Shown: piece after piece, positions 24,001 through 51,000 of the stretch
Layout of the letters: each line of letters opens with the position of its first letter
Position numbering within the stretch: position 1 is the stretch's first letter
Assembly: GCA_030693145.1 (NCBI GenBank)
Contig: JAUYBI010000041.1
Span: 10,228-74,227, forward strand
Length of the DNA: 64,000 bases
Source of the DNA: Candidatus Omnitrophota bacterium
GTDB lineage: Bacteria; Omnitrophota; Gorgyraeia; Gygaellales; Profunditerraquicolaceae
Direction: 5' to 3'
Made by a program: the position numbers and the translations under genes
Notes under the pieces: generated by a model
Told to the model about the DNA's origin: nothing
What the model saw: the letters and a program-made list of their open reading frames with translations, nothing else
Databases searched by the model: none

Positions 24001-27000
24001 CTGATGCCGCTACTGAAGTGGCAGAACATGAAGTAGATGCATTTTTTAGAAAAGTTAGTGAATATTTAATAGTAAGGCCTGCGGGAGATAATGTGACTAG
24101 GAGTGAGGACGGCGGCTCCTTTGAGCAGAAAGCAGTTGTTGGTCTGTTGAAGATTAATCCAGCCACTACTACCGCAGCTTGGAAAAAGCTAGAGGAATTT
24201 TCTAGCGTAATGAAAGAGCAGCGCATGAGCGATATGTTCGCTGACCCGCGGCGTTTTGATAAATATTCCATTCGCTTTGAGGATATGCTTGTGGATTATT
24301 CCAAGAACCGGATTAATCAAGAGGTAATAGATACTCTGCTTAGTTTAGCAGGAGAAGTTGGCCTTAAAAATGCAATCGAAGCGATGTTTACCGGCGTCAA
24401 GATTAATGAAACTGAAAACCGCGCTGTTTTGCATACTGCCCTGAGGAACCAATCCAATACACCTGTTTACGTTGATGGTAAAGATGTGATGCCGGCAGTG
24501 AATCGAGTTTTAGGGCAAATGAATGAGTTTTCGGCCAAGGTTATTTCCGGAGAGTGGAAAGGCTACACCGGCAAGGCTATCACAGATATCGTAAATATCG
24601 GTATCGGCGGTTCGGATTTAGGGCCGGTAATGATCACCGAAGCTTTAAAAGCTTATGCCGCGCGTAAGGATTTAAGGGTGCACTTTGTCTCTAATGTGGA
24701 TGGAACGCACATCGCGGAAACGCTAAACGGCCTTAATCCTGAGACCACACTTTTTATCATTGCCTCCAAGACCTTCACTACGCAGGAGACTATGACCAAC
24801 GCTAATACAGCCAAGGCTTGGTTCTTGAAAAACGCGGTAAACAAAGAACATCTAAAACTGCATTTTGTAGCGGTTTCCACAGCAGAAGAATTAGTTAAAG
24901 AATTCGGAATTGACACGGCCAATATGTTTGAATTCTGGGATTGGGTAGGCGGGCGTTATTCTTCCTGGTCGGCAATTGGCTTGTCAATCGCCTGCTATAT
25001 CGGTTTTGATAATTTTAAAGAGCTGTTCTCCGGCGCTCATGCTATGGATCTTCATTTCAGGAATACGCCGTTTGAGAGAAATATTCCGGTGATCCTAGCA
25101 CTTTTAGGTATTTGGTACAATAATTTCTTTAATGCCCAGTCGCATGTCCTCTTACCTTACGATCAGCACCTGCATCGTTTTGCCGCGTATTTTCAGCAGG
25201 GGGATATGGAATCAAACGGCAAGAATGTGGGTAGAGACGGCAAGCCAGTAGATTATCAGACAGGGCCGGTTGTCTGGGGCGAGCCGGGCACCAACGGTCA
25301 GCATGCCTTTTATCAATTGCTGCATCAAGGTACGAAATTGATCCCCGCGGATTTCATCGCCTTTGCCCAAAGGAGCGCTCAAAAAGAGTTCGATAAAGAC
25401 TATGATTTGAGGGAGCGTTTAGACATGCATCATAAAATATTCCTTTCCAATTTCTTTGCCCAGACCGAGGCCTTGATGCAGGGGAAGTCTACCGAAGAAG
25501 TCAAGAAAGATTTTGAAAAAGAAAATGCCAAGCGCAAAGAAAAGGGCCAGCTGGAATTAACCAATGAAGAAATATCCCGGCTTACGCCTTTTAAAGTTTT
25601 TGAAGGTAACCGCCCGACCAATTCTATCTTGGTTAAGAAACTTACCCCTCGCACGCTCGGTGTGCTCATCGCGATGTATGAGCATAAGATTTTCGTGCAG
25701 GGCGTAATCTGGAATATCTACAGTTTTGACCAGTGGGGTGTTGAGCTCGGCAAAAAACTTGCTAACAATATCCTGCCTCAGCTTGAGCCCGGAGTTGATG
25801 CCTCCAAACATGATTCCTCCACAACCGGACTTATTAATGCTTATAAGGATATGCTGGATGGTTCTAAGATTAATGTCCTTGATGAGGCATCTGGAGTTGA
25901 GAAGAAAGACGGCGGCTCCTTTGATGGTGGTTCACTTAGTAACAGCCTTGATAACTTTGCCGCCAATTTAATCGAATCTTTAGAAGAGAGAGCAAGGCAG
26001 GCTGGCTATTCTGTGGATAAAGATACAAAATTCTTTATCCTTGTGGGCGGCAATGTAAAAACCTCTCCTTCTTTTAAAATATTTAACCATCTTTTAAAGC
26101 TTGCCCAAGAGAATATAGTTTACCTTCCTTATGAAATCTCTTCAGAAAAGGAATTAGAAGAATTAACTCAGCTATTAAGAACCTGCCCGCGTTTGGTCGA
26201 GTTAGTAATAAGCGATCCTTATAAAGTAAGTGGGATTAAATATTTGGATGAGCTCTCAGTATTAGCAGAAAGAGCCCATGCAGTTAACAATATCGTTTTA
26301 AAGGATAATAAATTGTTTGGCTCTATGTTTGACGGTGTTGCATGGGTATATTGGTGGAAGATTATCTTAGGCCAAGGCTTGGATAATAAGAAGATTATTC
26401 ATTTGGGCGCAGGTGGAGTAGCAAGAGCCTTTGCCGCAGCAGTTGCTGAAGAGGCATCCAATGTGAAACTTGTTTTTACCGATACTAACGAAGAGCGTCT
26501 TTATGCTCTAAGAAATATTATAGAATCCTGGGGTAAGGATATTAAAGTTAAAATAATAAAAGTAGCGCCTGATCAAGAGTCCGGCGATTTAAATAAAGAG
26601 CTGACGGATGCTGATATTATTATTAATGGCACAGGGTTAGGGAAAAACAAAGGCAATATTTACGCTTATCCCAAGTTGGATTATACGAAATTAAAAGGAA
26701 AGGTTTGCATAGATTGGAATTATCGTCCAGCGGCAAAGAATCTTTTCTTAAAGTATTCCGAAGATAATGGAGCAACAATTTATAATGCTTTAGGATTTTT
26801 AATCACTGGTTTTTATTATACCTTCCACGCTATTTTGGATAGAAGAGGGGTTTTTGATTATAATAAGTTATTAAGTTTTGCAAAAGAAGACCCGATATTC
26901 AAAGAAGCTGCTGAGGTGGATTTTGAAGGCGATATAAGGTTTATTAAGGCAAAAGAAAGGTTAGCTGATTGGTTGCTTACTCTAAATAAGATGTCTCCGG

Positions 27001-48000: not shown

Positions 48001-51000
48001 TATACCACAAAAAGGTCAATGATAATAATTATGAAAGCAATCAGGTAAGGGATAACGTTATCCATATAAATTTAAATTTATTTCCTCCCTTTTATGACCC
48101 AGAGGAAAATAATAAGAGCCAGTATACCCGCCAAAATATAGAAGGTCAAAAGATTCATTATTCTGCTTTTGAGATAACGTTCCTAAATTCCCGATTTGGC
48201 GCTGCGGACACGGGAAAGAAATTGATAGATTTAGGCATGGACCGGAAGGTTAATATTCAAATGCCCCAATTTTTCAATCGGCATCTTTTGGCTTACATCG
48301 AGAATTTCAATTCCGAAGAGTTTTCCGTTTTTGTCAATATCTATGAGTATTCCATCGCGCAGTTTACGGGTTTCTTTAGCCTTGCCGCTCTGGAATTGAA
48401 TATACAAAGCATCCGCCTCTTGATCAAATCTTATTTCCATAATCTATCCCCTCTCTTTAAGCCAGTAAGTAGTAATAATAACTATTTCTCCATCAAGGTT
48501 TTTATAAACAACCTCAAGCTTTTTAGTTCCGAAATCTTTCTTAGCGATATGATCTCCTCCAAAACTAGAATGTATTTTGTCAGGATGAGCGATAGTGTTT
48601 TCGATTTGTTTCTTAGAAAGTTACCTTTGATTTATCCGAAGATTAGCATGTTTGGTATAGATGAATTTCACAATAAAAACCGTATCATGCCTGCGATGAT
48701 AAGTCAAGATGGATTTGCCGCCAGCGCGCAAGGCCTTGACGGCGGCGCGTCAGTTAAATCGGAAGAAATAAAACCGTTTCAAATTATTTCTATGATAGTC
48801 AGAGACGGCAACACTGATGGCAAAAAAGAAAATCAGCCAGAAATAGATGTGTCTTTTGAGATTGCTAAAAAATTATTAGAATCGTTGGAAGTAGAAAAAG
48901 ACGGTTACATTTACGAGATAAGAGTTTGTAAGTTTGATTTCGCAGTCCCAGAAATAATGAGAAAAATATCTAGTTATGTTTCATCTTCAGATTTCAGTGA
49001 AACTATTTCTTATATATTCAACGTAAGAAACGATGTTTCAGGAGTAGAATTATTAGAATATATATTAGAAAATAGGGAGATTGCTGTTTTTGATGATACT
49101 CTGATAGAAATTGGGCAAAGAAAGGGTGTGTTTCATCAAGAGGCTAAAAATGAAATAATGTCTGTTTTAGACAGGTTGAAGCAGGGAATTGTTTCAGAAT
49201 GTGCAATTGTGCCTCATTCGGAGCAAACTATAAAGGATAAAGCAGAAAAGAAGATTCTTGAAGTGTTAGCTGAAATATCCAGAGGAAGGGGCGCTTTGTA
49301 TTTCTGGCAAGAAACTTTCTATAAAATTATTGAAGAATTTGGTTCCGCTGCTATTGATTTTATCTTAAAGAAAATTAGTGATGCTGAAAATAATGACTTA
49401 AGGTATTTTGCTAATTGTTGCCTGACCACTGGGATATTGGGGCAGAACAATGAAGAGAAAAGAAGAGAATGTTATAGCGAAGTATTTGAGTTTTATAGAA
49501 ACAGAATAAATAACACAATTCCTTTAGATGAATTATTCCATATTCTGAGATGGGAAACACGTAGGCTGAGCAGTGTAGTTGTTCCTGCCAGTTTATTTAA
49601 CAGTATAGAAGATATTAAATATCTAATTAAAGCCGGACAAATGTCTCAATTCTATGGCCCCGGTTATTATATCCCTAGCGAAGATGTTTTTGAAATTATT
49701 ATAGATTTTTATCCTTCGCCATCTAATTGGAACACAACACAGCGATTTTATTATATATTTACGCCCGAAATACCCTCTGTAGATACGCCTGCACCTTACT
49801 TCCAAGTAAAAAAGTTAAAATTTTGCGAATATGGATTGTATGAAAAAGAATTAGCTTGCGAAAGCCTGTCTATGGAAGATATGGATTCGTTGCGAAAGAA
49901 ATTTAATGATAAAGATGGCCTGGTTATAATTACTAAAGGTGTTAGAGGCGCTATTACGACGGTTGTGCCTACGCTAGGCTTGCATATGCATTCTCATAAT
50001 GATGGCAGGCGTGGCCCATCTCTTGAAGATTATTTAGATTATGAAAGATTTAATTTTGATAAGGATGGGGGAGAATTAACTGGTGAAAAGCAAGAGAAGG
50101 AAAATATTTCTAATTTAATTGTGACAGTGGATACGGAAAGAGACGGCGGTGAGTCAGCCATTATTATTGATATTGGCGCAGGATATGGCGGCGTAGCGAA
50201 GTATTTAGCAGGGAAATTCCCAGCCTCTCGGAGAATAGCTTTGGAACCGGAAGTTGACGAAACCGCGTGGCTTAAGAAGTATATAACGAGGGACGTTTCC
50301 CAAGGGGACACCCTTGACCGCTCAGCGCGCCTTGACGGCGGAGATTTGAATAAGGGAATTTTACTTGAGAAGTTTAATAAATTCTTCTACGGAGAGTCCA
50401 GCACCTTTGAGAATAGAATAGAGTGTTCCAGGTTTAATGGTTTTGGAGCCGTGAACTGGAACTATACAGCGTCTATTCAGGTCGGTTTGATGCCGCATAA
50501 TAACATGGGAGCCGCTTTGGCGTTTAATAAAAAATCCGTGCTTTTCAAGGGCACGGATAACCTCTTTGCCAGAGACATGTGGCAATTTGGTCATACAGAA
50601 ACCTCTATATCTCTTAATTCGACCTCTACGTCAGATTCCGGAATTGGCAATTTATCATCTTTCAATGACCATAGATACAAATTAACTGCCTCTTTAATAT
50701 TAGCCAATGCCTCTTCTGTGGTTTCTCCTTGGGAAGCGCACCCGGGAAGCGCCGGAACATGGACAGAATATCCACCCTCGACCTCACTTTCAATAATTAC
50801 CTTAAGGTGCCTCAACATATTTATACCTCCTACTTATAAAAATACAATACATTTATCCCCAAGTCAAGGTAAAACTTCAATTCCTCTTGGCAGGCAGGCT
50901 AGTTTTGGCCGTTCAGCGCGCCTTGACGGCGGCGCCAAAGTTAAAAACCAGCGCTCCAGAATACTTGTTGAGCTGGAAATTGCTAAGGAAAGATTTGAAA

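What the first reader, a model, noticed from the sequence alone, without database searches (positions are those of the whole stretch)
25908..50333. Very short, truncated and motif-degenerate modules suggest cassette turnover and decay
DGG-to-DGG distances include 2 codons (25917-25922), 11 (45996-46028), 19 (37809-37865), 22 (43143-43208), 23 (50073-50141) and 28 (12534-12617). HPS stops after 137 codons (41985-42395), and a methyltransferase is reduced to its first 61 codons (50151-50333). Some otherwise complete modules have non-canonical catalytic motifs: Walker [10 protein letters not shown] (about 32440), PMM TGSHVP instead of T(A/G)SHNP (20472-20489), and HAD DFNGT (about 14031). Others (PGI B, hexokinase, 6PGL, APS kinase) look intact. 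The mixture resembles an array under birth-and-death dynamics.
Basis: partly seen in the sequence, partly recalled or inferred. Interest (0 to 1): 0.5.

Follow-up and report, generated by a model that had tools for sequence, protein, structure and literature searches.

The report
Giant gene built from DGG-joined cassettes
The whole 64 kb window is one unbroken reading frame of a bacterial (Omnitrophota-type) giant gene. It is made of whole enzymes joined by an Asp-Gly-Gly junction. The short and truncated pieces are real leftovers of rearrangement, and five segments carry toxin-antitoxin genes on the opposite strand that the giant frame reads straight through.

Summary
The window is a single stop-free frame of 21,332 codons, open at both ends. 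It belongs to the "multi-enzyme" class of Omnitrophota giant genes.

- **Junction.** DGG occurs 53 times against 5.8 expected. It never falls inside a Pfam domain and is mostly encoded as GAC-GGC-GG, always in frame.
- **Modules.** They are whole enzymes: hexokinase, two PGI copies, PMM and NagA.
- **Stubs.** Two of the six very short segments are demonstrable copies of the ends of longer modules. HPS is cut at about half. A methyltransferase is reduced to its first ~45 residues.
Five DGG-bounded segments between 44.2 and 51.9 kb carry toxin-antitoxin genes on the minus strand, some decayed. The giant frame stays open through them (joint P about 5e-13).
- **Comparison.** One related contig (L002) has the same punctuation but no shared gene order.

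Turnover and decay are therefore supported.

I infer that DGG is a protein-level processing signal, so the gene works as a polyprotein. No protease was found in the window.

The parts
3..63998 (+). Single uninterrupted reading frame of 21,332 codons, running off both ends of the window. An internal piece of a giant multi-enzyme gene.
   Evidence: No stop in this frame, against 712-2,294 stops in the other five frames. Enzyme domains tile it.
41985..52469 (+). Hot spot of junctions. It holds 20 of the 53 DGG sites in 16% of the length, together with stubs, truncated enzymes and all five antisense cassettes.
   Evidence: Binomial p=2e-4. Segment table. Antisense genes.
12534..12626 (+). Stub of 28 codons plus DGG. 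It is a truncated copy of the N-terminus of module 15768-18635.
   Evidence: 89.7% identity over 29 aa, E=3e-24. About 95% nucleotide identity, starting at the DGG and ending at the GAT of the next DGG.
15768..18635 (+). Full-length module (PHP domain) whose first 28 codons are the parent of the stub at 12534. It is a paralogue of module 7470-10397 (49% over 527 aa).
25917..25931 (+). Two-codon segment (Ser-Phe) plus DGG. TCC TTT equals the first two codons of the PGI A module just upstream. Possibly a deletion footprint.
   Evidence: DGG-xx-DGG also occurs twice in the related locus L002. Too short for a statistical test.
37809..37874 (+). Stub of 19 codons plus DGG. Origin unresolved.
   Evidence: no significant paralogue.
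43143..43217 (+). Stub of 22 codons plus DGG. It is a copy of the C-terminal tail of a module like 44826-45545. The homology continues 5 aa past the DGG.
   Evidence: 66.7% identity over 24 aa, E=4e-11.
45996..46037 (+). Stub of 11 codons plus DGG. RKEKAQ resembles the start (RQEKAQ) of methyltransferase module 47187-47960, but not significantly.
50073..50150 (+). Stub of 23 codons plus DGG. Origin unresolved.
41985..42404 (+). Truncated hexulose-phosphate synthase. Only the first half of the barrel is present.
   Evidence: Pfam OMPdecase positions 3-104 of 221. Homologues align only to window aa 13990-14117, and no C-terminal half is found anywhere in the window.
50151..50342 (+). Methyltransferase N-terminal stub (motif [10 protein letters not shown]) fused to the conserved junction element.
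   Evidence: Sub-threshold hits to model positions 1-47 only. Junction similarity.
24117..25916 (+). PGI A. A complete glucose-6-phosphate isomerase bounded by DGG on both sides.
   Evidence: Pfam 793 bits over positions 1-486/486. PDB 3hjb/3nbu align over residues 10-577. 66-69% identity to free-standing bacterial PGIs and 78% to an Omnitrophica PGI.
29493..31316 (+). PGI B. A paralogue of PGI A (78% aa identity, dN/dS 0.15). Its ends coincide with the native start and stop of free-standing PGIs.
30195..30266 (+). 24-aa in-frame insertion in PGI B. It duplicates the downstream [15 protein letters not shown] signature region (41 of 48 nt identical to 30336-30383).
34458..35810 (+). Complete eukaryote-type hexokinase module.
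   Evidence: Pfam Hexokinase_1 and _2. Residues 8-440 of 451 align to glucokinase 8-447 of 455.
40665..41984 (+). Complete GlcNAc-6-phosphate deacetylase (NagA-like) module.
   Evidence: Pfam Amidohydro_1. PDB NagA residues 3-392 of 396.
20172..21815 (+). Phosphomannomutase/phosphoglucomutase module with TGSHVP at the phosphoserine loop.
   Evidence: Four PGM_PMM domains. PDB 4hjh at 278 bits. Motif.
50361..50594 (-). HicA toxin gene, full length, antisense to the giant frame.
   Evidence: PF07927, 78 bits, positions 1-58/58. P(no stop in giant frame)=0.003 under synonymous resampling.
50591..50818 (-). HicB antitoxin gene, antisense to the giant frame. A promoter-like TTGACT-17-TATTTT site and AGGAGG lie upstream.
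   Evidence: PF15919, 45 bits. Promoter scan. Sequence.
51191..51568 (-). DUF5615 (PIN-like) toxin-type gene, antisense to the giant frame.
   Evidence: PF18480, 81 bits, positions 2-108/110.
51558..51782 (-). DUF433 antitoxin-type gene, antisense to the giant frame. AAGGAGG and a promoter-like TTGACT site lie upstream.
   Evidence: PF04255, 78 bits, positions 1-56/56..
44294..44566 (-). DUF5647 gene, antisense to the giant frame. The upstream partner (44559-44804) is only a weak, partial DUF7718 match.
   Evidence: PF18882, 77 bits. DUF7718 E=1.9e-4 over positions 5-44/104.
45701..45925 (-). HicB-like antitoxin gene, antisense to the giant frame.
   Evidence: PF15919, 34 bits.
45636..45719 (-). 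Remnant of a HicA toxin. Only about 28 C-terminal residues remain ([13 protein letters not shown], against [13 protein letters not shown] in the intact copy).
   Evidence: No Pfam hit because it is too short.
48231..48440 (-). DUF2283 antitoxin-type gene, antisense to the giant frame.
   Evidence: PF10049, 64 bits, positions 2-49/49.
48447..48668 (-). DUF4258 toxin-type pseudogene with one internal stop codon.
   Evidence: Minus-strand translation. PF14076, 37.9 bits, positions 1-71/71 once the stop is replaced. Coordinates.
50296..50342 (+). Conserved junction element (...CCCTTGACCGCTCAGCGCGCCTTGACGGCGG), translated as ..[11 protein letters not shown]. Related copies end at 50933, 51911 and 54605.
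   Evidence: Alignment A1. Peptide matches. No consistent hairpin.
52470..54605 (+). HEAT-repeat module with a conserved C-terminal domain (weakly GNAT-like). It is the only module shared with the related loci, and it is bounded by DGG here and in L002. A paralogue lies at 56442-59906.

Best explanation
**Shown.**
- The window is an internal 64 kb piece of one translated giant gene of the Omnitrophota 'multi-enzyme' class.
- The frame is a chain of whole, formerly independent genes: hexokinase, two PGI copies, PMM, NagA, 6PGDH/6PGL, APS kinase, aminotransferase/radical-SAM and methyltransferases.
- The modules are joined in frame by an 8-nt junction, GAC-GGC-GG (Asp-Gly-Gly). The junction sits within about 7-24 residues of the native protein ends.
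- The array changes by duplication, partial deletion and insertion. The short and truncated pieces are leftovers of such events.
- The stretch 42-52.5 kb is a hot spot. It also holds five cassettes whose real genes are toxin-antitoxin pairs on the opposite strand.
- The giant frame is kept open through those cassettes by constraint on their synonymous sites.

**Inferred.**
- DGG is a protein-level signal, most likely a double-glycine proteolytic processing site. The gene would then work as a polyprotein that releases individual enzymes and discards stubs and antisense 'junk' peptides.
- The C39-type peptidase reported at the N-terminus of such giant proteins is the obvious candidate protease.
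- Only rearrangements that keep the frame and regenerate a DGG survive. That would explain why every remnant is DGG-bounded.
- The GC-rich junction in an AT-rich gene may also serve as microhomology for module gain and loss.
For: **One real frame.**
- No stop in 21,332 codons.
- The frame stays open across seven antisense genes. Per-gene P is 0.003-0.10 and the product is about 5e-13.
- None of the 22 Leu codons in the three in-register antisense genes is TTA or CTA, against 45% of Leu codons in the giant frame.

**Junction.**
- DGG occurs 53 times against 5.8 expected.
- None of the 53 lies inside a Pfam stretch, against 14.3 expected (P=5e-8).
- GACGGCGG occurs 30 times, always in frame and never on the minus strand. 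Asp is GAC in 68% of junctions against 21% elsewhere (p=1e-12). The first Gly is GGC in 70% against 30% (p=3e-9).
- Third codon positions drift, yet one-residue variants of DGG are not enriched (218 against 252 expected). This argues for amino-acid-level constraint.

**Modules are whole enzymes.**

**Turnover.**
- Stubs are paralogous to module ends.
- PGI is duplicated with dN/dS 0.15, and PGI B has an internal duplication.
- HPS and a methyltransferase are truncated.
- Toxin-antitoxin cassettes are decaying.
- The junction hot spot is significant.
- L002 has the same punctuation (15 against 1.9 expected, including two DGG-xx-DGG) but shares only one module.

**Literature.**
- Multi-enzyme Omnitrophota giant genes, N-terminal C39 and S8 peptidases, and the statement that cleavage points are unknown: 10.1101/2023.11.21.568195.
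- The 'multi-enzyme metabolic cluster' class: 10.64898/2026.06.07.730766.
Against: - No protease domain lies in the window.
- The N-terminus, where C39 would sit, is outside the window.
- The residues around DGG show no double-glycine-leader pattern. Information content is at the null level.
- Several DGG-bounded segments contain two or three enzymes (for example 25932-29492), so not every enzyme would be released singly.
- The codon bias at the junction points to a DNA- or RNA-level cause that the cleavage idea does not explain.
- Other giant ORFs carrying the shared HEAT module lack DGG enrichment, so the motif is lineage-restricted.
- Four of the six short stubs cannot be assigned to a parent module.
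- The count of short gaps is no more than random scatter gives.
- The null model for the antisense genes uses the giant frame's own codon usage. It may overstate significance if the cassettes came from a more GC-rich donor.
Confidence: 0.6

Rival explanations
1. The junction is primarily a DNA-level recombination site, making this an 'in-frame integron'. A recombinase, or microhomology-mediated exchange at GACGGCGG, inserts, excises and shuffles cassettes. DGG is merely the translation of that site and has no role in the protein. This can coexist with the best explanation.
For: - Codon choice at the junction is far from the gene's own usage, and the 8-mer occurs only at junctions.
- Several junctions share a longer element, CCTTGACGGCGG or a ~47-nt version.
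- Homology of the stub at 12534 begins exactly at the junction.
- Cassettes occur in both orientations, and the toxin-antitoxin cassettes have their own promoter-like sites, as in chromosomal integrons.
- There is no shared gene order with L002.
Against: - The junctions form no attC-like hairpin (z-scores near 0 in 6 of 7).
- No integrase or transposase lies in the window.
- The 23-nt junction element has no match in the metagenome collection.
- One-residue variants of DGG are absent although synonymous drift is visible. A site needed only as DNA would also forbid that synonymous drift.
Confidence: 0.2
2. DGG is a flexible hinge in a single uncleaved multi-enzyme scaffold. The short segments are spacers of functional length rather than decay products.
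For: - DGG lies strictly between domains.
- Gly-rich turns are common linkers.
- HEAT scaffolding modules are present.
- DGG-xx-DGG recurs in a second genome.
Against: - A hinge should tolerate NGG, DGS or EGG, yet these are not enriched.
- The stubs are copies of module ends of different lengths, not a linker family.
- Uncleaved antisense-derived peptides of 150-260 aa would sit inside the scaffold.
- Half an HPS barrel is unlikely to be a spacer.
Confidence: 0.12
3. The long frame is an artefact: an assembly chimera or a dead pseudogene that is no longer translated. The fragments would then be meaningless debris.
For: - Many segments have no recognisable domain.
- The source contig itself was not found in any collection searched.
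Against: - No stop in 64 kb cannot persist without selection.
- The frame is kept open even through antisense genes.
- The PGI copies evolve under purifying selection (dN/dS 0.15).
- An independent MAG contig shows the same architecture.
- Such genes are documented in complete long-read genomes.
Confidence: 0.03

Closest known systems
Omnitrophota giant genes: 'Archaeovorins' (West-Roberts et al. 2023 preprint) and the 'multi-enzyme metabolic cluster' class (2026 preprint 10.64898/2026.06.07.730766)
   Same: - An ORF of tens of thousands of codons.
- Tiled by many different enzyme domains: PGI, PGM/PMM, hexokinase, methyltransferases, radical SAM, HAD.
- HEAT scaffolding.
- The closest relatives are Omnitrophota MAG contigs.
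   Different: - Neither paper mentions a DGG junction, a linker or a cleavage point. The first states that cleavage points are unknown.
- Neither reports antisense toxin-antitoxin genes inside the frame, or module stubs.
- Most relatives retrieved here lack DGG enrichment.
Polyproteins cut after Gly-Gly: ASFV pp220/pp62, adenovirus and nidovirus papain-like protease sites, polyubiquitin (named from memory)
   Same: - Whole functional proteins are fused head to tail.
- A short recurring motif ending in Gly-Gly lies at every boundary.
   Different: - This is a cellular gene rather than a viral one, and at least tenfold longer.
- Its cargo is heterogeneous metabolic enzymes.
- No cognate protease has been identified here, and cleavage has not been shown.
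Double-glycine leader peptides processed by C39 peptidase domains (bacteriocins, PCAT transporters)
   Same: - Cleavage after Gly-Gly.
- C39 domains are reported at the N-terminus of Omnitrophota giant proteins.
   Different: - The upstream hydrophobic/acidic leader pattern is absent.
- Here the motif is internal and repeated more than 50 times.
- Asp at position -3 is invariant.
Sedentary chromosomal integron cassette arrays with toxin-antitoxin cassettes (named from memory)
   Same: - A long array of unrelated cassettes separated by a recurring junction.
- Rapid gain and loss, and partial cassettes.
- Toxin-antitoxin cassettes with their own promoters, some in the opposite orientation, that could stabilise the array.
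   Different: - All cassettes lie in one reading frame with no stop codons.
- The junction is 8-47 nt without an attC hairpin.
- No integrase has been seen.

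Membership tests
Omnitrophota multi-enzyme giant gene | A single ORF of at least 10,000 codons | tested here: met
   21,332 codons without a stop, open at both ends.
Omnitrophota multi-enzyme giant gene | Many distinct enzyme families tile the polypeptide with none dominating, plus HEAT-type scaffolding | tested here: met
   More than 25 distinct Pfam families, including PGI, hexokinase, PGM/PMM, 6PGD, APS kinase, DegT, radical SAM, methyltransferases and HEAT.
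Omnitrophota multi-enzyme giant gene | Encoded in an Omnitrophota genome | tested here: inconclusive
   The source contig was not found. The shared module occurs on Omnitrophota/Omnitrophica MAG contigs, and also on contigs binned as Planctomycetales, Methanosarcinales and Margulisiibacteriota. The best PGI hit is Candidatus Omnitrophica.
Omnitrophota multi-enzyme giant gene | N-terminal C39 or S8 peptidase and SecA-DEAD domains | not testable with these tools
   The N-terminus lies outside the window. None of these domains is in the 64 kb.
Proteolytically processed polyprotein | A recurring short motif at the boundaries between complete functional proteins | tested here: met
   DGG is 9.2x enriched and 0 of 53 sites lie inside domains. 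Modules span the native termini of PGI, hexokinase and NagA.
Proteolytically processed polyprotein | A cognate protease and demonstrated cleavage products | not testable with these tools
   No protease domain was found in the window. Proteomics is needed.
Double-glycine (C39/PCAT) leader | A conserved leader pattern upstream of GG, with hydrophobic residues at -4, -7 and -12 (LSxxELxxIxGG; consensus recalled from memory) | tested here: not met
   Position-specific information from -12 to -1 is at the null level. The maximum is 0.65 bits at -1, against a null maximum of 0.69.
Integron cassette array | attC sites: imperfect inverted repeats that fold into a hairpin at each cassette boundary | tested here: not met
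   Seven junctions were folded as ssDNA. Six have z-scores between -1.0 and +0.8, and there is no shared structure. The alignment shows only a linear motif.
Integron cassette array | An intI tyrosine recombinase with attI next to the array | not testable with these tools
   None in the window. The ends of the array are outside it.
Type II toxin-antitoxin modules (HicAB; DUF433/DUF5615; DUF2283/DUF4258) | Two adjacent small genes on one strand, each matching the toxin and antitoxin families over their full length | tested here: met
   HicA 78 bits with HicB 45 bits. DUF5615 81 bits with DUF433 78 bits. DUF2283 64 bits with DUF4258 37.9 bits, the last carrying an internal stop. Activity was not tested.

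The most novel reading that the evidence does not exclude
This lineage runs a gene-capture system inside a single reading frame. The 8-nt junction GACGGCGG would be both the recombination or microhomology site at which whole genes are inserted, duplicated and deleted, and, translated as Asp-Gly-Gly, the protease site that releases each product. Anything that keeps the frame open can then be carried, including selfish toxin-antitoxin cassettes in antisense, which may in turn protect the array from deletion. This would be a cellular 'in-frame integron/polyprotein' hybrid.
Probability: 0.2. Interest if true: 0.9.

Novelty: new variant of a known kind. Interest (0 to 1): 0.68.

Why it matters
Giant multi-enzyme genes of Omnitrophota are known. 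How they are processed and how they evolve is an open question, and the authors who described them state that cleavage points are unknown.

- **A testable cleavage map.** A 53-fold repeated, domain-excluding DGG junction gives a concrete candidate map. Proteomic N- and C-terminomics, or co-expression with the C39 domain, could test it.
- **A mode of evolution.** The stubs, duplications and lack of shared gene order show that the gene evolves like a cassette array rather than like a conventional protein.
- **An unusual overlap.** Intact toxin-antitoxin operons lie on the opposite strand of a frame that stays open through them. This is a striking case of overlapping coding constraint. It is also independent evidence that the whole frame is read.

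Tried and rejected
1. **Integron reading.** The junctions do not fold. No integrase was found.
2. **Canonical double-glycine leader.** There is no upstream pattern.
3. **Internal translation starts at GGAGG-like DGG codons.** Only 8 of 53 first-Gly codons are GGA, and no start codon follows.
4. **The conserved HEAT-module C-domain (invariant Cys and His) as the missing protease.** The model has pLDDT 72, and Foldseek gives only weak GNAT acetyltransferase matches (E of 0.02 or higher), not a protease.
5. **A search for a protease in all unannotated segments at E up to 1.** None was found.
6. **A search for the source contig or the junction element.**
   - The 23-nt junction pattern has no hit in metagenome contigs.
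   - Exact look-ups of DUF433 and HicA are not on record.
   - Protein searches with 41985-46589 and 52470-54605 returned no self hit.
7. **DGG enrichment in other giant ORFs or proteins sharing the HEAT module.** Absent except in L002.
8. **More antisense genes outside 44-52 kb.** Low-purine windows at 18.7 kb and 39.2 kb hold nothing credible. L002 has none, and the other loci have no toxin-antitoxin homologues.
9. **Short spacing as a statistical signal.** Rejected, because spacing is exponential.
10. **Rfam and tandem repeats.** Nothing relevant.

Full report
**Observation.** Reading frame 3 of the plus strand (bases 3-63998) has no stop codon in 21,332 codons. The other five frames have 712-2,294 stops. 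The window is therefore an internal piece of one giant ORF that runs off both ends.

The tripeptide DGG occurs 53 times against 5.8 expected from composition. It is by far the most enriched tripeptide, at 9.2x. So are the three motif variants: GNSGAFKST at 32439-32465, TGSHVP at 20472-20489 and DFNGT at 14034-14048.

**What the frame contains.** Pfam scans of the whole translation show these domains, among others:
- B12/radical-SAM with a DegT aminotransferase, APS kinase with PHP, and CofD.
- A four-domain PGM/PMM.
- Two complete PGIs (793 and 761 bits).
- A shikimate-DH-like, 6PGDH and 6PGL block.
- Methyltransferases, and a PRK-like domain with ARMT1.
- A eukaryote-type hexokinase, a histidine phosphatase and an amidohydrolase.
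- Half an HPS, a SIS domain, PEMT, HEAT repeats and a CN-hydrolase.

Many segments have no hit even at E up to 1.

This matches published descriptions. One is the 'multi-enzyme metabolic cluster' class of Omnitrophota giant proteins (10.64898/2026.06.07.730766). The other is the Archaeovorin description, which lists PGI, PGM/PMM and HEAT domains, N-terminal C39 and S8 peptidases, and the statement that cleavage points are unknown (10.1101/2023.11.21.568195).

**The junction.**
- None of the 53 DGG sites falls inside a Pfam-matched stretch, although such stretches cover 27% of the residues. 14.3 were expected (P=5e-8).
- Where a module is a recognisable whole enzyme, DGG lies 7-10 residues before it and 10-24 residues after it.
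- Hexokinase residues 8-440 of 451 align to glucokinase 8-447 of 455.
- NagA residues 32-417 align to 3-392 of 396.
- PGI A aligns end to end with the Vibrio and E. coli enzymes.
- PGI B starts and ends at the very residues where free-standing PGIs have their start and stop: MLYKINPTKT...AYKELRSK* against [12 protein letters not shown]...[13 protein letters not shown].

The flanking residues carry almost no information, so this is not a canonical double-glycine leader.

At the nucleotide level the motif is GAC-GGC-GG:
- GACGGCGG occurs 30 times, always in the giant frame and never in another frame or on the minus strand.
- Asp is GAC in 36 of 53 junctions against 21% elsewhere (p=1e-12).
- The first Gly is GGC in 37 of 53 against 30% (p=3e-9).
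- The third position of the second Gly is unbiased.

Synonymous drift is therefore visible. Yet tripeptides one residue away from DGG are not enriched (218 against 252 expected). This argues that all three residues are held at the amino-acid level.

**The short segments.** The number of short gaps is not itself unusual. Spacing fits an exponential (KS p=0.39), and gaps of 31 aa or less number 6 against 3.9 expected. What shows they are remnants is homology.
- Segment 12534-12626 is 90% identical (about 95% at nucleotide level) to the first 28-29 codons of module 15768-18635. The homology starts exactly at the DGG, the upstream sequences are unrelated, and it ends at the Asp codon. There the stub continues GAT-GGA-GGA into the next module, whereas the parent continues GAT-AAT-TAC (E=3e-24).
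- Segment 43143-43217 copies the last 22-24 residues of a module like 44826-45545, plus the DGG and five residues beyond it (E=4e-11).
- The two-codon segment (Ser-Phe, TCC TTT) equals the first two codons of the PGI A module just upstream. The 11-codon segment begins like methyltransferase module 47187-47960. Both are too short to test.
- The 19- and 23-codon segments have no detectable parent.

**Truncation and degeneracy.**
- The HPS segment covers only model positions 3-104 of 221. Homologues align only to that half, and no second half exists anywhere in the window.
- Segment 50151-50342 matches only the first 41-47 positions of methyltransferase models, below threshold. It then runs into a conserved junction element.
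- PGI A and B are 78% identical with dN/dS 0.15 and dS 0.75, so both have been under purifying selection. PGI B nevertheless carries a 24-aa internal duplication of its own signature region and an 8-aa insert.
- The catalytic-motif variants are weak evidence. As I recall it, the PROSITE PGM/PMM signature accepts Ile at the position where this module has Val. HAD enzymes other than phosphatases vary at Asp+2. The HAD assignment itself is sub-threshold. The Phe in the Walker A motif is the most suspicious of the three but is untested.

Five DGG-bounded segments have low purine content at codon position 1. All five carry genuine genes on the minus strand:
- 50343-50933: HicA (78 bits) and HicB (45 bits).
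- 51174-51911: DUF5615 (81 bits) and DUF433 (78 bits).
- 44220-44825: DUF5647 (77 bits).
- 45546-45995: a second HicB (34 bits).
- 47961-48746: DUF2283 (64 bits).

All of these match over the full model length. Shine-Dalgarno sequences are present, and TTGAC(T/A)-17-TAnnnT sites lie directly upstream of four of the operons. Promoter-like sites as a class are not above the shuffle expectation.

The plus-frame translation of these segments is meaningless, yet it contains no stop. Resampling synonymous codons of each antisense gene gives P(no stop) of 0.003-0.10 per gene, with a product of about 5e-13. The three genes that are in codon register use none of TTA, CTA or TCA. They have 0 of 22 Leu codons as TTA or CTA, against 45% in the giant frame. 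The other two plus frames have 2-11 stops in each gene.

The cassettes are at different stages of decay. Two pairs look intact. One HicA is reduced to its last ~28 residues. The DUF4258 partner of DUF2283 has an internal stop but still matches positions 1-71/71.

All antisense cassettes, all but one of the stubs and both truncated enzymes lie in or next to 41985-52469. That stretch holds 20 of the 53 junctions in 16% of the length (p=2e-4). Several junctions there share a longer element...CCCTTGACCGCTCAGCGCGCCTTGACGGCGG, translated as ..RSARLDGG. It does not fold into a hairpin.

**Related sequences.** The HEAT module 52470-54605 was found on 13 contigs, mostly Omnitrophota MAGs. It sits inside ORFs of 1,500 to more than 7,400 codons. 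Only L002 (JAIWAR010000003.1, GC 0.38, 22.3 kb all open) also has DGG punctuation:
- 15 sites against 1.9 expected, again rich in GAC-GGC.
- A 34-aa segment and two DGG-xx-DGG pairs.
- The same kind of cargo: PGM/PMM, GH94, GAPDH, radical SAM and a methyltransferase.
- It shares nothing with the window except that one module, which is DGG-bounded in both.

Other giant ORFs and proteins with the module show no DGG enrichment. The 1.84-billion-protein search found the module core in proteins up to 7,952 aa. Most of region 41985-46589 has no homologue at all.

PGI A is 78% identical to an Omnitrophica PGI and 66-69% identical to ordinary PGIs of about 550 aa from many phyla. This fits capture of ordinary genes.

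**Mechanism.**
- *Shown:* one selected reading frame; whole-gene modules; a junction constrained at both codon and residue level and excluded from domains; duplication, truncation and insertion, including antisense selfish cassettes; rapid loss of gene order.
- *Inferred:* DGG is a processing signal, so that enzymes are released, perhaps co-translationally, and stubs and antisense peptides are discarded. This would explain three things: why junk is tolerated only between two DGGs, why every surviving rearrangement regenerates a DGG, and why one-residue variants are missing.

The C39 domain reported at the N-terminus of these proteins cleaves after Gly-Gly and is the natural candidate. It is outside the window, and the leader consensus is not met. 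The codon bias suggests that the junction also matters as DNA. It could serve as microhomology or as a recombination site, or it could reflect recent common origin of the junctions. That rival is not exclusive of the first. A pure hinge model fits less well, and an artefact is very unlikely.

**Novelty.** The gene class is published. The following were not found in the two papers on these genes or in full-text searches:
- the DGG/GACGGCGG junction code;
- the module stubs;
- the hot spot;
- the antisense toxin-antitoxin operons read through by the giant frame.

I rate it a new variant of a known kind. It has real value because it turns the open question of whether and where these giants are cleaved into a directly testable one.

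Noticed in passing
L002 (JAIWAR010000003.1, contig range 15046-37379): The only other DGG-punctuated giant ORF found sits in a MAG labelled Methanosarcinales archaeon. Its content (PGM/PMM, GH94, HEAT module) is of the Omnitrophota giant-gene type. It is probably a mis-binned contig, which might reflect physical association of an epibiont with its methanogen host.
   Followed up: partly
window 52470-54605 and 56442-59906: Two paralogous copies (27% identity) of a HEAT-repeat module. Its ~450-aa C-terminal domain has no Pfam match and is conserved across many Omnitrophota long proteins, with invariant DCSFD and RAMHEDT motifs. The predicted fold is weakly GNAT-like. Function unknown.
   Followed up: partly
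window 34458-35810: The hexokinase module is of the eukaryotic two-domain type. It scores 528 bits to human hexokinase-2 and 278 bits to glucokinase. That is unusual for a bacterial genome.
   Followed up: no
window 10398-12533, 21816-24116, 39597-40664: These sense-coded segments have GC skew near 0, whereas most of the frame has +0.2 to +0.3. The two PGI modules are also atypical (GC 0.44-0.45, skew 0.07-0.08). This may mark recently acquired DNA.
   Followed up: no
window 44718-44746, 45925-45953, 50839-50867, 51811-51839 (minus strand): Four antisense cassettes have a TTGAC(A/T)-17-TA..(T) site upstream of their first intact gene, within about 50 nt in three cases and about 150 nt in the fourth. 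Three of the -35 boxes lie in a shared CTTGACTT context. This suggests a common cassette promoter. Promoter-like sites overall are not above the shuffle expectation.
   Followed up: partly
protein P0001 (968 aa, NCBI source): The closest homologue of the truncated HPS is itself a fusion. It has three HPS-like copies followed by SIS domains, and its first copy is also cut short after ~120 residues. HPS truncation may therefore recur.
   Followed up: no
protein P0068 (C-terminus) against window 25880-25960: An Omnitrophica PGI-containing protein has ...EMAGGSDESSLDNSSS where the window has ...[17 protein letters not shown]. Related lineages may use AGG or another xGG at the homologous junction.
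   Followed up: no
window 25932-29492, 1956-7469, 32274-34457: Some DGG-bounded segments hold two or three different enzymes: shikimate-DH-like, 6PGDH and 6PGL; radical-SAM, DegT and a GHMP-like domain; PRK-like and ARMT1. Either junctions were lost or fused multi-enzymes were captured as units.
   Followed up: no
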